A DNA stretch of 64,000 nt from Eledone cirrhosa (Eukaryota), in assembly GCA_964016885.1 (NCBI GenBank), contig OZ024742.1, forward strand, positions 316,510,001 through 316,574,000, in the 5' to 3' direction. The notes beneath the pieces were generated by a model that searched no databases, had not been told where the DNA came from, and saw only the letters and a list, made by a program, of their open reading frames with translations. Numbering within the stretch: the first letter of the stretch is position 1; the number at the start of each line of letters is the position of its first letter. Both the position numbers and the translations under genes were made by a program. Shown here piece by piece: positions 19,519 through 61,471 of this stretch.

Positions 19519-21650
19519 GCTAAGTATTCTATAAGTCTCTAGCTGTGTCATTCTCGATAAAAGCACTGGATATGTAATCCTGATGATTTCTAATAAGAAT
19601 GAAACGCGTAGGTTACTTCCCTTGCTTTTACCGAGAATCTCAAATTGTAATACGTGACGTATTCTATTCTATAGCGATTAGGTCTTCAAAATGTTTATTA
19701 TAAACATACAGAATATTTTCGAATATTCTATGTTTGTCTTCACATATATATCGCTATTTCAGAGCATTATATCCAAATTCTAATTTCTGCCGGACCGGCA
19801 ACCGCTCTTTCAAACCAGTTCCTGTACACAGCTAAGTATTCTATAAGTCTCTAGCTGTGTCATTCTCGATAAAAGCACTGGATATGTAATCCTGATGATT
19901 TCTAATAAGAATGAAACGCGTAGGTTACTTCCCTTGCTTTTACCGAGAATCTCAAATTGTAATACGTGACGTATTCTATTCTATAGCGATTAGGTCTTCA
20001 AAATGTTTATTATAAACATACAGAATATTTTCGAATATTCTATGTTTGTCTTCACATATATATCGCTATTTAAGAGCATTATATCCAAATTCTAATTTCT
20101 GCCGGACCGGCAACCGCTCTTTCAAACCAGTTCCTGTACACAGCTAAGTATTCTATAAGTCTCTAGCTGTGTCATTCTCGATAAAAGCACTGGATATGTA
20201 ATCCTGATGATTTCTAATAAGAATGAAACGCGTAGGTTACTTCCCTTGCTTTTACCGAGAATCTCAAATTGTAATACGTGACGTATTCTATTCTATAGCG
20301 ATTAGGTCTTCAAAATGTTTATTATAAACATACAGAATATTTTCGAATATTCTATGTTTGTCTTCACATATATATCGCTATTTCAGAGCATTATATCCAA
20401 ATTCTAATTTCTGCCGGACCGGCAACCGCTCTTTCAAACCAGTTCCTGTACACAGCTAAGTATTCTATAAGTCTCTAGCTGTGTCATTCTCGATAAAAGC
20501 ACTGGATATGTAATCCTGATGATTTCTAATAAGAATGAAACGCGTAGGTTACTTCCCGTGCTTTTACCGAGAATCTCAAATTGTAATACGTGACGTATTC
20601 TATTCTATAGCGATTAGGTCTTCAAAATGTTTATTATAAACATACAGAATATTTTCGAATATTCTATGTTTGTCTTCACATATATATCGCTATTTCAGAG
20701 CATTATATCCAAATTCTAATTTCTGCCGGACCGGCAACCGCTCTTTCAAACCAGTTCCTGTACACAGTTAAGTATTCTATAAGTCTCTAGCTGTGTCATT
20801 CTCGATAAAAGCACTGGATATGTAATCCTGATGATTTCTAATAAGAATGAAACGCGTAGGTTACTTCCCTTGCTTTTACCGAGAATCTCAAATTGTAATA
20901 CGTGACGTATTCTATTCTATAGCGATTAGGTCTTCAAAATGTTTATTATAAACATACAGAATATTTTCGAATATTCTATGTTTGTCTTCACATATATATC
21001 GCTATTTCAGAGCATTATATCCAAATTCTAATTTCTGCCGGACCGGCAACCGCTCTTTCAAACCAGTTCCTGTACACAGCTAAGTATTCTATAAGTCTCT
21101 AGCTGTGTCATTCTCGATAAAAGCACTGGATATGTAATCCTGATGATTTCTAATAAGAATGAAACGCGTAGGTTACTTCCCTTGCTTTTACCGAGAATCT
21201 CAAATTGTAATACGTGACGTATTCTATTCTATAGCGATTAGGTCTTCAAAATGTTTATTATAAACATACAGAATATTTTCGAATATTCTATGTTTGTCTT
21301 CACATATATATCGCTATTTAAGAGCATTATATCCAAATTCTAATTTCTGCCGGACCGGCAACCGCTCTTTCAAACCAGTTCCTGTACACAGCTAAGTATT
21401 CTATAAGTCTCTAGCTGTGTCATTCTCGATAAAAGCACTGGATATGTAATCCTGATGATTTCTAATAAGAATGAAACGCGTAGGTTACTTCCCTTGCTTT
21501 TACCGAGAATCTCAAATTGTAATACGTGACGTATTCTATTCTATAGCGATTAGGTCTTCAAAATGTTTATTATAAACATACAGAATATTTTCGAATATTC
21601 TATGTTTGTCTTCACATATATATCGCTATTTCAGAGCATTATATCCAAAT
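19519..21650 (+). repeat. Tandem array of 312-bp units (6.8 copies), each carrying a hammerhead ribozyme; retrozyme-like
   Basis: Unit starts at 19519, 19831, 20143, 20455, 20767, 21079 and 21391. Only a handful of single-base differences separate the copies. Confidence 0.97.
19574..19616 (+). ncRNA. Minimal type I hammerhead ribozyme, copy 1 of 7 (others at +312 bp steps up to 21446-21488)
   Basis: GUAAUC-CUGAUGA-U.UUCU(AAUA)AGAA.U-GAAA-CGCG-UA|GGUUAC. Stem I GUAAUC/GGUUAC has 6 bp, both catalytic boxes are intact, stem III is palindromic (ACGCGU) and the cleavage triplet is GUA. Confidence 0.88.
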
Positions 21651-21867
21651 ATATATATAGTTAGCTATCCTCTTTGTTGTTATCTTGTTTCACTCACTTT
21701 ACGCGTTTTAATTGTCCTAATAACTTAATTTAGTTATTATTGCACCGACGTGAGGTATATGATTTTTAATGCAATGAAATATCTATGATCGTCGGCAAAT
21801 CACTGATGAGGGACTTATTTTATTACATGTTATCCATGTGCAACCAGCAGTATTCTTCTCCCCATTT

Positions 21868-21956
<89 letters not shown>

Positions 21957-24098
21957 ACCTAAATTATGTTAATTTTAAATCTAACCACCCTACTAATATT
22001 AAGAATGCTATAGTTAGTAATATTGGAAAAAGAATATCTAACCTATCTTCTAATAAAAACATCTTCGATGCTAACGCCAATTAATATAATAACGCGCTTT
22101 CTAAAGCCGGCTATCCTGATAAAATCAAATATAATAAAGAAACAAATTCTAGAAATCTTACAGTAGAATAATTAATCATGATCATTCCAATAACTTTAAT
22201 AAAAGACCTAGATACAAAAACATAATCTGGTATAATGCTCCTTTCTCCATCTCTATTAATAATAATATTCCTAAATTATTCTTTAGTGCCTTAAATAAAT
22301 GCTTCCCTCCCTCACATATCTATAGTAAAATATTTAACAAACACACTATAAAATTTTCCTATTCTACATCCTCCAACATTTCCAACATTATCTCTAAACA
22401 CAACAATAAAATACTAAATACTAAATCTCTTCCTTCCAACACTGAATATCATAATAATAGTAATAGTACTCCCGACGTCATTGTAAACCCTAGGCTAATT
22501 TCTGCAAATACAACGTCAAACACAACTTCGCTAAATGTTCTTAATCCCATTCTAAATCAAGAAACTATTATTCCTATCGCAAATAACTTCTCCAATCCAA
22601 TTCCTTCTATAGATAACACTAGGTCACTCGTTAATAATCTCTCTAATTGCAATTGCCCTGCAATTGTCTTGATAAAAACGTAATTTACGAATGTAAAGTT
22701 ATAACTGACACCAATTCCTTCACCTATTTTGGCTCCACTTCCACCTCTTTTAAAGCTCGTCTTTATAATCATCATTCGTCTTTTAAATATAAACTTAAAA
22801 GAACCAACACGGCTCTCTCAGAACTCATATGGTCCTTAAAAGACAAAAATATAAAATATAACATCTCTTGGAAGAAGGTTTCCTCTGCTTTTTCATACTT
22901 GAACAGTTCTCTATCCAAGACTTGCAATCTCTGTCTGAATGAAAAAATTACCATTATACCTAATTTAGATTCTATAATAAATAGACGCACTGACTTGTTT
23001 TCTATCTCCTTGCATAAATTACACAGAACTTTCCATAAAGTAAACAGCTAATATCCTAAACTTTTTCAATTCAGAATCCTTTTTTCAAAGGCACATATAT
23101 ATATATATACTTCTTTAAAAATATACCCATCTTTCTACCTTATTTCAAAGTTATTTATCATATTCTATATCATTCCTATTCATCACTTCTCTTTCTTCCT
23201 TTTCCTTTTCTTTTCTTTTGCTTTTTCTTTTAATTTCTAACCCCTAATCTGTACCTTTTCTCACTGTGCCTAATATAGAAACAATTATTACACATACACT
23301 ATATTCTTACTTTATATCACCTTGAAAAAATCCTTCGTAAACATAAACATTTTTTTTTACATTAGATTATTCATCCTCTATTCATTATTTTTTTCTCACT
23401 TTCATCTAACTTATTCATGCTCATCTCACAATATATCCTTACTTACATTACTTCTGTGTTTTTTTAATAATACATATCAACATTTTCTTTCCATCGCACA
23501 TATTATTAAACCCTTAAATATTATTCTTAATACATATTAACATTTTCTTTCCATCTCACATATTATCAAACCCTTAAATATTATTCTTAATACATATTAA
23601 CAATTTATTTTCATCGCACATATTATTAAACCCTTCAATATACAAACCTTAACTTTACATTATTTTTCTCTTCGTTAATTTTCAAATTCTTTTAATTTAT
23701 ACATTATCTTCCAACGGTTTTTCAACCTCTCTATGTAAAACAATATATTTTTCTCAGTTATAAAAGCTATCTCTATCTCTCTATCAGCCATCTCTCCTCC
23801 TATCGCATCCTTCCTCATTATACTCCTCCCCCTCTACTTTTTACTCTCATCTCCTCCTCTTTTTCATCCTTACCAACCTCCCCTCCTCAAAACAAATTTT
23901 TTCCCCAATATCACACATCAATCTAAAACTACTTTTCATATGTTGATTTAAAACTGCACTATCCACAAGTGTTTTTAACCTTCATATCATGTCCTCCTAT
24001 TTTATCTGATGAAAACACAAATGTTATTGCATGATGATATTTGTTTTTGAAATGCGCATAATAAAATACCTGGAACTCATTTAACCATCTTTTGATCT

Positions 24099-34845: not shown

Positions 34846-34882
34846 TCTTAACATTTCGGACGTTAGTCCTTCATCAGAAGAA
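34846..34882 (-). ncRNA. Minimal hammerhead ribozyme with altered stem III
   Basis: UCUU-CUGAUGA-A.GGAC(UAAC)GUCC-GAAA-UG-UU|AAGA. Confidence 0.65.
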
Positions 34883-47554: not shown

Positions 47555-50615
<3,061 letters not shown>

Positions 50616-57200: not shown

Positions 57201-59250
57201 TTCTACCTGGAGTTGCGACCGATAGATAGTATTAGCAATTGGAAAGACCAACGGAAACATTGTTCCCTCGGTCCGATTTGACGAAAGTCGATCGTTCCTT
57301 TAAATATATATATATATGTATATATATATGTATATATGTAGAAGTTCTATTTAAATTGTTGGGATACATCAAGCAAATATTTGTATAACTGATATAAAGC
57401 ATTCAACAAATAATTGTAGTAAAAATACGATATTAACAAATGGAAACTATATTTATAAAACCATATTTATTTCAAGGACACCAAGTTAAATTATCGTGTG
57501 CTTCATCAGATAAAATATAATATAGAGCAGTTTTATAAATAAATATTGACATACCCTTAAAGAATGCAACCATTACTGTTGGAGCTCCCGGTAGTGGTGT
57601 TATAAATTTATTTATACTATTATGTAAATTAGTATTGGATATTTTTAAATCAGAATAGATTTAAATAAGCCGTTGGGTTACGGAGAAAGAGAGAGATAGA
57701 AAGAGAGAGAAAAAACAAGAGAGAGAAAAAAGAGAGAGATATCAAAAGAGAAAAAAGAGCAAACCTTTAAGAAGAAAATAAGTAAAGAGAGAGAGAGAGA
57801 AGAAAAAGAGAAGAGAAAGCGAAAGCTCTAAGTGATAGGTTGTTGAGTTATCTTAACATTTGAGATGAAGTGAAAGAATATAATAAATATATAATGGATG
57901 AATAGAGAAATGTAAATAAGCGTGATGGAAAATACATATATAATAGGAGAGTTTTAACCATTGTTTAAATATGATTAAATGTTTAGTTTATCATTTAAAT
58001 TATTGAGATCTATACATTAAAAATTGAGATCTATATATTATTAAGAAATCTATATATTATTAAGACTATATATTATTAAAAAAGCTATATATTATTAAAA
58101 GAATATATTCATATATATACACACGCACACACAGATATATATACATATAAATATATATACATACAAATAATATACACATACATCTACGTACATATACATA
58201 TACATACAAAATATAAAGGATTTTTTAATTTAAGATATAGGAATGTTCATAAACTTATAGACTTTTCTGAGAAAATCATAGAAAAAACAGAGGAAATCAT
58301 TTCTATGTAATATCAAAACAGCGTGAAGGAAATTATGTTATTTAGTTATATAAATGTTACAAATGTTAAGATATTAAAGGAAATTTTATGTTATACATAC
58401 TTTATGTTATTATACAAAACTGTTTATATATAAGTTTTATATCTAATAAATCCACATGTTATGTAGTTATGACTGTTATTATATAGGTTTGTTTATCACG
58501 AACCTTAAGAAAATCCTTATAAACGAGTGCAATCGAATTGTATGCATATATATATATATACACAATACCACGTATATACACATAGACGTACCTACACATA
58601 TAGGTAGATATGCATCACACATATATATATACATACATACACACACATAAATATATATACATACATATACATATATATATATACACACATACATATATAT
58701 AGAGAGAGATACATAAATACAGTACATAGTATAATTGAAGTACACAATATATGTAATATAAAATAAAATAAAATAAAATAAAATAAAATAAAATAAAATA
58801 AAATAAAATAAAATAAAATAAAATAAAATGAAATAAAATAAAATAAAATAAAAAATAAAATAAGATAGAATTATATTACGATTTGGAAATATAATTATAA
58901 GCAATATAACTTTAAATCAATATAATTTAAAAAATATTATAGAATATTTCAAGTTATAATTTTAAAATAATAATATGTTTAATAGATTCAGTATAAAAAT
59001 TTTCTTCTTATGTTTAACTTAATTTTATAGCCATAATAGAAAGAAAGAGAAACTTTCAAAAATAAGAGAAACTATCAAAAATATTTTCCCTTTTTAAGAG
59101 CTTTCAGTATGTTTCTCTAGAAGAGTTTTTTTATATTTATTTATATTTAGGAAGAAAAACTTTTTTCCTTGAGAGTTTAAGCAGTCAAAAGAAGGAATCT
59201 AATGATTTATCGATAGGTTCAATATATTAATAGAATTAATTAATTATATA

Positions 59251-61406: not shown

Positions 61407-61471
61407 TATTTTATCTGATGAAAGCACACCATAATTTAACTTGGTGTCCTTGAAATATGTATAATGAAATA
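61407..61471 (+). ncRNA. Type I hammerhead ribozyme, family B
   Basis: UAUUUUAU-CUGAUGA-[stem II]-GAAA-UAUGUA-UA|AUGAAAUA. The mirror copy at ~57465-57517 lacks stem III and the cleavage site. Confidence 0.78.

What the first reader, a model, noticed from the sequence alone, without database searches (positions are those of the whole stretch)
19519..19922. The 312-nt monomer is base-paired throughout, like a viroid-type structured RNA
Seen: a 16-bp helix encloses the ribozyme (AUUCUCGAUAAAAGCA / UGCUUUUACCGAGAAU, one mismatch). Other hairpins are AAUACG(UGA)CGUAUU, AGAAUAUU(UUCG)AAUAUUCU with an AAACAU/AUGUUU extension, UGCCGG-A-CCGGCA and ACACAGCUA...UAGCUGUGU, plus long-range AUAGCGAU/AUCGCUAU and UGGAUAU/AUAUCCA. 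The 16-bp helix spans the cleavage site, so it would hold the two monomer ends together. Inference: this favours ligation into a circle and implies selection at the RNA level.
Basis: partly seen in the sequence, partly recalled or inferred. Interest (0 to 1): 0.75.

Follow-up and report, generated by a model that had tools for sequence, protein, structure and literature searches.

The report
Folded self-cutting RNA repeat (retrozyme)
This is one of thousands of genomic copies of a 312-base, protein-less repeat whose hammerhead self-cutting motif and the long helix around it have been kept by paired mutations; it belongs to a known class of animal mobile elements that likely make small RNA circles and are likely pasted in by a Penelope-type enzyme, and it is only about 60% paired in the predicted fold, so it is not a viroid.

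Summary
The window holds 6.8 near-identical 312-bp units (19519-21650), each with a type I hammerhead; the core motif occurs 14,242 times in the genome. This is an animal non-LTR retrozyme, a known class. The monomer folds better than shuffles (z -3.9) but is 60% paired against 55%, so 'paired throughout' overstates. Older sister families (down to 53% identity) supply the covariation test: the enclosing 16-bp helix shows 8 independent two-sided changes (null 1.3) and the ribozyme 9 (null 0.6, including C3-G8 to U3-A8); other body helices are conserved without significant covariation. In a tandem transcript the helix clamps neighbouring units, not one monomer's ends, so it does not by itself select circles. 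Insertions carry Penelope scars: (TA)n targets, mirror-image arms, two fixed 3' ends about 27 nt apart (58 of 73 inverted loci). Arms share a haplotype (57 of 62) and truncations ignore the cleavage site, fitting a circular or uncut template. No RNA evidence was obtainable. The scan noted such elements before on other DNA.

The parts
19519..21650 (+). Tandem array, 6.8 units of 312 bp, one retrozyme insertion
   Evidence: TRF period 312, 99% matches; only 4 single-base differences among 7 units
19611..19922 (+). Predicted RNA monomer, cleavage site to cleavage site (repeats every 312 nt)
   Evidence: Sites after 19610, 19922, 20234, 20546, 20858, 21170, 21482
19568..19620 (+). Type I hammerhead, first of 7: stem I 19574-79/19611-16 plus 19568-70/19618-20, core CUGAUGA 19580-86, U.U then 4-bp stem II with AAUA loop, GAAA, palindromic ACGCGU helix III, predicted cut after GUA at 19610
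   Evidence: Sequence; Rfam HH9 19.9 bits, E 0.041, below the gathering score of 52; covariation in stem II and C3-G8
19550..19638 (+). 16-bp helix (19550-65 with 19623-38) that extends stem I around the ribozyme
   Evidence: Pair probability 0.90; 8 independent two-sided changes on a 46-sequence tree, null mean 1.33, 0 of 5000
19649..19663 (+). 6-bp triloop hairpin; same place holds a hairpin of other sequence in older families
   Evidence: Probability 0.93; 19 of 29 family C copies fold a hairpin of 5 bp or more here; not alignable in register
19671..19757 (+). Arm closed by 19671-78/19750-57, holding hairpins 19691-19707 and 19710-19729
   Evidence: 92-95% paired across 46 sequences, 4 two-sided events in all; 19691-19707 and 19710-19729 recovered by RNAalifold
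19751..19810 (+). Best-conserved block: the two fixed 3' end points (monomer 141 and about 166-172) and helices 19761-65/19804-08 and 19788-19800; likely site recognised by the mobilising enzyme
   Evidence: 83% and 82% identity blocks against 35-79% elsewhere; motif found 16,398 times in the genome
19826..19860 (+). Hairpin ACACAGCUA/UAGCUGUGU with inner stem
   Evidence: Probability 0.97; upper 3 pairs kept with two-sided change in family C, lower pairs not in register
21624..21650 (+). 27-nt Penelope-type 'tail' at the 3' end of the array
   Evidence: Array ends at monomer position 168; other arms end at 141
21651..21660 (.). (TA)n target remnant
   Evidence: Sequence; 2,387 forward-strand tail-(TA)6 junctions in the genome
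14337..19518 (+). Neighbouring decayed L1/Tx1-type LINE, cut about 30 nt before its usual end, then 4 unmatched bases; flank, not part of the retrozyme
   Evidence: Exo_endo_phos, RVT_1, zf-RVT; 9 of 9 other copies run on into an (ATCT)n-type tail

Best explanation
The 312-bp unit is a protein-less tandem repeat with a type I hammerhead and a covarying helix around it, an animal non-LTR retrozyme whose tandem transcript is predicted to cut itself into monomers that are likely closed into circles and likely copied back into (TA)n DNA by a borrowed Penelope-type enzyme. Steps: (1, inferred) arrays are transcribed on the + strand; (2, predicted) because helix III is a bare palindrome, cutting works best as a double hammerhead in the multimer, which would leave a monomeric circle largely stable; (3, shown by covariation) the 16-bp helix prolongs stem I to about 25 bp and fixes the ribozyme fold and the nick; (4, inferred from PMC7229834) an RtcB-type ligase rather than the ribozyme seals the nick, giving a circle only after the helix exchanges partners; (5, shown as genomic scars, mechanism inferred) the enzyme nicks both strands of a (TA)n tract and starts copying at two fixed internal sites 141 and about 168 nt after the cut, running through several units, which gives mirror-image arrays with a one-sided tail.
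For: Tandem 312-bp unit, 34.6% GC, no ORF of 100 aa in the array. 14,242 core matches, control 0. Covariation: 86.6% of cells paired, 15 of 56 pairs with two-sided change, slid controls 31-42%; independent RNAalifold consensus recovers the enclosing helix and stems I-III; 21 independent two-sided events on 55 pairs, null mean 1.7, max 10 of 5000; C3-G8 becomes U3-A8 in 27 of 33 rows, a known core variant (PMC4209133 passage). Among young copies, 5 of 37 array-fixed changes break a strong pair against 10.5 expected (P 0.018). Helix III forms no hairpin alone but a -9.5 kcal/mol dimer duplex, as in axolotl retrozymes that cut well only as dimers (PMC7229834). Penelope scars: 73 of 96 loci inverted; 58 of the 73 pair a 135-145 end with a 160-176 end, none pairs two alike; PLE enzymes start internally at two sites that bound a 30-40 nt tail, cut both strands and prefer AT-rich DNA (PMC11167929). 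Template: both arms share a haplotype in 57 of 62 loci against 9% for arms of different loci; 4 of 164 truncation points lie at the cleavage site against 5.8 expected; arms reach 4,092 nt; the private C at 19631 is in all 7 copies here and in none of 37 other loci. Young autonomous PLEs with open 784-aa frames exist in the genome.
Against: No RNA evidence at all: transcription, cleavage and circles are untested here. Folding z alone is not exceptional in this genome (2 of 30 control stretches lower) and is as strong on the minus strand. Body helices other than the enclosing one show no significant covariation (567 of 5000). The strand test failed to favour RNA: internal-branch changes to G.U 10, to A.C 13. 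Mean ddG of young variants is only borderline (P 0.077). The ribozyme-active fold is 3.6-8.8 kcal/mol above the circular MFE and Rfam does not pass it. Only 1 of 9 Xenopus retrozyme dimers cut in vitro (bioRxiv 10.64898/2026.07.22.740005), and unprocessed RNA was the main PLE substrate in vitro. No autonomous partner sharing the tail was found in two PLE families or 15 odd-flank loci. 5 of 62 loci have arms that differ.
Confidence: 0.7

Rival explanations
1. Same retrozyme and same Penelope enzyme, but the template is an uncut linear multimer transcribed from a homogeneous parent array; the helix serves ribozyme folding or enzyme binding and circles are rare or by-products.
For: In vitro a PLE used unprocessed RNA and ribozyme mutants inserted as well (PMC11167929); the helix pairs locally in multimers; shared arm haplotypes and uniform truncation fit a multimer equally; one variant recurs 4 units apart in this array and 25 non-fixed variants recur within arrays.
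Against: Array-fixed private variants (e.g. 7 of 7 here, 20 of 20 in L144) need an unsampled parent each; arrays cross up to 12 intact cleavage sites per arm although the ribozyme is under selection; circles are abundant in coral, mussel and axolotl.
Confidence: 0.22
2. A monomer or short unit is inserted and then amplified at the DNA level as a minisatellite; the hairpins matter as single-stranded DNA or cDNA structure, not as RNA.
For: Minus strand folds as well; G.U against A.C test neutral; 5 of 71 inversion junctions fall on predicted helices; local amplification is proposed in the 2026 preprint.
Against: C3-G8/U3-A8 is a tertiary pair of the RNA catalyst on one strand only; both mirror arms are multimeric, share a haplotype and end at two fixed sites; units within an array differ by 0.3% against 0.8-1.3% between arrays, which fits either but gives no gradient of age.
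Confidence: 0.05
3. A viroid-like circle that replicates RNA-to-RNA and is repeatedly archived in the genome by the Penelope enzyme.
For: Size, one haplotype per array, recurrent variants on several backgrounds, cloned mussel circles matched no genomic copy (PMC7229834).
Against: No minus-strand hammerhead; thousands of genomic templates suffice; no RNA data.
Confidence: 0.03

Closest known systems
Animal non-LTR retrozymes (Cervera and de la Pena 2020, PMC7229834; review PMC7761336; Li, Clavereau, Pollet 2026, bioRxiv 10.64898/2026.07.22.740005)
   Same: Tandem 150-450 bp units, type I hammerhead in each, low GC, no protein, predicted self-paired circle with the ribozyme left free to fold; palindromic weak helix III as in axolotl HHR_Amex1 and a U.U at the base of helix II as in HHR_Amex2; PLEs in the same genome.
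   Different: New sequence family; most copies are mirror-image double arrays in (TA)n with two fixed ends, and the end region is the best-conserved block, whereas the review (passage) says metazoan repeats show no conserved motif pointing to the mobiliser; the parts read give MFE predictions, not covariation; RNA and cleavage are shown there, not here.
Penelope-like elements: pLTR, tail and inverted 5'-truncated copy (Craig et al. 2021, PMC8557442; Frangieh et al. 2024, PMC11167929)
   Same: Partial tandems, inverted truncated copy, about 30-nt tail on one end only, (TA)n/AT-rich targets, two internal start sites downstream of a hammerhead.
   Different: No RT or GIY-YIG frame; no partner element sharing the tail found.
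Hammerhead viroids (Avsunviroidae) and satellite circles
   Same: Size range, hammerhead, branched predicted fold, possible double-hammerhead control.
   Different: Genome-encoded in thousands of copies; ribozyme on one strand only; ribozyme not blocked by a complementary strand (contrast stated in PMC7229834); replication and infectivity not shown.

Membership tests
Animal non-LTR retrozyme | Tandem repeats of 150-450 bp, GC under 50% | tested here: met
   312 bp x 6.8, 34.6% GC
Animal non-LTR retrozyme | Complete type I hammerhead motif in each unit | tested here: met
   7 of 7 units; covariation; Rfam match only sub-threshold
Animal non-LTR retrozyme | No protein coding, no LTR organisation | tested here: met
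   No ORF of 100 aa or more inside the array; no tRNA head; PBS/PPT not searched
Animal non-LTR retrozyme | Dispersed, mobile family co-occurring with PLEs | tested here: met
   14,242 core matches; young PLEs with open frames
Animal non-LTR retrozyme | Stable self-paired predicted circle | tested here: met
   z -3.9, 60% paired, branched; enclosing helix covaries
Animal non-LTR retrozyme | Self-cleavage in vitro | not testable with these tools
   Needs transcription assay
Animal non-LTR retrozyme | Accumulation of circular monomer RNA in tissues | not testable with these tools
   No RNA holder listed; contigs cannot tell circle from tandem DNA
Autonomous Penelope-like element | ORF with PLE RT and GIY-YIG endonuclease | tested here: not met
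   None in or joined to the arrays examined
Autonomous Penelope-like element | Insertion signature: inverted truncated copy, one-sided 30-40 nt tail, AT target | tested here: met
   58 of 73 inverted loci pair short and tailed ends, none two alike; tail here is 25-33 nt
Hammerhead viroid | Ribozymes in both polarities (recalled; also stated in the PMC8781251 abstract listing) | tested here: not met
   No minus-strand hammerhead in the array
Hammerhead viroid | No genomic DNA form; autonomous RNA-to-RNA replication (recalled) | tested here: not met
   Thousands of chromosomal copies; RNA replication itself untested
Hammerhead viroid | Ribozyme blocked by a complementary stretch in the circle | tested here: not met
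   Stem I stays formed in the circular MFE; only short core mispairing predicted, not conserved in older families

The most novel reading that the evidence does not exclude
The arrays are direct genomic records of single circular RNA molecules read round and round from two start sites by a two-strand-nicking Penelope enzyme, and the circles change at the RNA level between insertions (A-to-I editing, template switching or RNA copying), which would explain one haplotype per array, recurrent variants on different backgrounds and the A-to-G bias of array-fixed changes (10 of 35 against 19 of 265 single-copy changes). The conserved block around the two start sites would then be a portable signal that lets a Penelope enzyme write any circle into DNA.
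Probability: 0.15. Interest if true: 0.7.

Novelty: new member of a known kind. Interest (0 to 1): 0.36.

Why it matters
As a class it is known. What this family adds is a natural series, from near-identical young arrays to sister families at 53-65% identity in one genome, that turns the usual folding prediction into a covariation result and names which helices matter. The insertion scars make the open question of who mobilises animal retrozymes, and from what template, directly testable: two fixed start sites, one haplotype per insertion, and a conserved 60-nt block as the candidate enzyme-binding signal. A ribozyme that cuts as a dimer but rests as a monomer would also explain how such circles persist.

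Tried and rejected
Rfam at gathering scores: 0 matches in the window. RNA evidence: no RNA holder listed; four runs of unrecorded kind hold the unit as contigs, three as 340-342 nt looped contigs, which a tandem DNA array also gives; not used for or against expression. Strand test G.U against A.C: neutral (7 against 3 among young variants by hand, too few). Folding z as proof: weakened by controls. Idea that inversions are guided by the RNA helices: only 5 of 71 junctions lie on helices; 24 of 71 have 4 nt or more overlap against 2% by chance, but BLAST overlaps allow mismatches while the null was exact. Linear cleaved monomer as template: no pile-up of truncations at the cut. Autonomous partner: hammerheads with a similar stem II at 16 loci, 20 tail-(TA)n loci, 7 of 15 odd-flank loci read and two young PLE families gave only more non-coding sister families; no shared tail. 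LINE as mobiliser: the adjacent L1/Tx1 is a truncated flank, and 3' ends lack its tail. Core invariance among young copies was not used, because 58 of 96 loci were picked by a core pattern. Target-site duplications were not tested systematically; (TA)n flanks hide them. No R-scape on hand; a parsimony count on a FastTree tree was used instead.

Full report
1. What is there. The finding covers the start of a tandem array at 19519-21650: period 312, 6.8 copies, 99% matches, four single-base differences among seven units. Each unit holds a type I hammerhead: stem I 19574-79/19611-16, core CUGAUGA at 19580, a U.U pair and 4-bp stem II, GAAA, a palindromic ACGCGU in place of a stable helix III, and a predicted cut after GUA at 19610 (7 of the 12 pattern matches in the window, chance mean 0.89). 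Rfam finds nothing at gathering scores and only a weak HH9 match (19.9 bits, E 0.041). No ORF of 100 aa lies in the array. To the left is a decayed L1/Tx1-type LINE cut about 30 nt short of the end seen in 9 of 9 other copies; to the right a short (TA)n.

2. Check of the fold. The monomer 19611-19922 has a circular MFE of -66.3 kcal/mol, z -3.88, 0 of 200 shuffles as low; 60% of bases pair against 55% in shuffles; the minus strand gives z -4.67. Of 30 control stretches of like GC from this window (30 of 61 eligible), 2 have a lower z. So the fold is better than chance but neither 'throughout' nor unique. The mismatch in the 16-bp helix is private to this locus: 37 of 38 loci have the perfect helix.

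3. The family. The exact core pattern occurs 14,242 times in G000, reversed control 0; about 674 belong to the window's 312-nt subfamily, most others to a 310-311 nt subfamily about 95% identical. Among 96 loci (38 picked by similarity, 58 by position-ordered pattern lists), units differ by 0.3% within arrays and 0.8-1.3% between arrays. Of 37 array-fixed changes, 5 break a strong pair against 10.5 expected (P 0.018); mean ddG is borderline (P 0.077).

4. Covariation. A chance hit led to an older family at about 63% identity and to further families sharing the same end motif. RNAalifold on 16 sequences, given no structure, recovers the enclosing helix, stems I-III and three hairpins, 20 of 46 pairs with two-sided change. 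Counting events on a tree of 46 sequences (53-96% identity; L104 left out as partial) gives 21 two-sided events on 55 pairs, null mean 1.7. Split up: enclosing helix 8 against 1.33 (0 of 5000), ribozyme 9 against 0.62 (0 of 5000), other body helices 4 against 1.87 (567 of 5000). C3-G8 turns into U3-A8, a variant known from PLE hammerheads (PMC4209133, passage); this is a tertiary RNA pair and the clearest sign of RNA-level selection. A G.U against A.C strand test was neutral (10 against 13).

5. What the helix does. It extends stem I to about 25 bp. In a three-unit transcript it pairs across the cleavage site with probability 1.0, and with the same monomer's far end 0.0. After cutting it therefore holds neighbours together at a nick; a circle needs a partner exchange (inference). 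In published retrozymes self-ligation gave 1-3% circles and RtcB 30-80% (PMC7229834). Helix III forms no hairpin alone but a -9.5 kcal/mol dimer duplex, like amphibian ribozymes that cut well only as dimers; this would let multimers cut and circles rest (inference).

6. How it moves. 73 of 96 loci are mirror-image double arrays; 58 pair an arm ending at monomer 135-145 with one ending at 160-176, 15 have one irregular end, none has two alike; most ends run into (TA)n. This is the Penelope signature: inverted truncated copy, one-sided 30-40 nt tail, (TA)n bias (PMC8557442, passages), explained in vitro by two internal start sites and cutting of both strands (PMC11167929, parts 1-2 of 4). The window's array ends at the tailed site (168). 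Both arms share a haplotype in 57 of 62 loci (9% for arms of different loci), truncation points are spread evenly with 4 of 164 at the cleavage site (5.8 expected), and arms reach 4,092 nt. The template is thus one molecule or one source, circular or uncut; these data cannot separate the two, and the in vitro study favoured uncut RNA. Young PLEs with open frames exist but none shared the tail.

7. Comparison and novelty. It meets every testable feature of animal non-LTR retrozymes (PMC7229834, parts 2-4 of 6; bioRxiv 10.64898/2026.07.22.740005, parts 1 and 3 of 5; PMC7761336, passages), whose circles are already described as highly self-paired. It fails viroid membership. Five searches (listings and abstract starts) showed no paper on this family or on covariation in retrozyme bodies; an octopus repeat annotation has no mention of ribozyme or retrozyme (PMC13282606, term search). 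The host group was not tested; an earlier AI note calls this genome octopus. Earlier notes of this scan report the same Penelope scars on other retrozymes, in this and other genomes; my reading predates them. Supplements were not read.

8. Verdict. Observation partly confirmed, interpretation partly supported, new member of a known kind, interest 0.36. Shown: array, ribozyme motif, covariation of ribozyme and enclosing helix, insertion scars. Inferred: transcription, cleavage, ligation, circular template, identity of the enzyme.

Noticed in passing
window 21760-21815: GAAA precedes CUGAUGA just 3' of the array, in the reversed order that earlier notes describe for a rearranged hammerhead; seen by eye only.
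   Followed up: no
window 22153-23051: Decayed frames with a GIY-YIG-like motif by eye, probably an old PLE end; no Pfam hit.
   Followed up: partly
window 48479-49357: Copy of a young PLE family with open 784-aa frames at many loci, ending in (TA)n with a 31-nt optional tail.
   Followed up: partly
window 20072 and 21320: The same C-to-A change recurs four units apart in the array; may be a 4-unit duplication, gene conversion or a multimeric template.
   Followed up: partly
96 loci: Array-fixed changes are A-to-G rich (10 of 35) against single-copy changes (19 of 265); tolerated G.U pairs or RNA editing of the template; polarity assumed from majority.
   Followed up: partly
L099/L140, L126/L144, L095/L105, L122/L123: Identical inversion junctions recur at unlinked loci, twice across different haplotypes; whole double arrays may be re-copied or junctions have hot spots.
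   Followed up: no
L169-L178, L311, L315: A separate abundant element ending in (TA)n carries a hammerhead with the same U.U plus UUC/GAA stem II, often with an inverted copy just upstream.
   Followed up: partly
L220, L225, L229, L222, L223: Older families replace the 6-nt helix III palindrome by 12-nt palindromes and vary the core (CUGAGGA, UUGAUAA).
   Followed up: partly
window 34854-34877, 57470-57509, 61415-61455: Other CUGAUGA...GAAA motifs belonging to different repeats.
   Followed up: no
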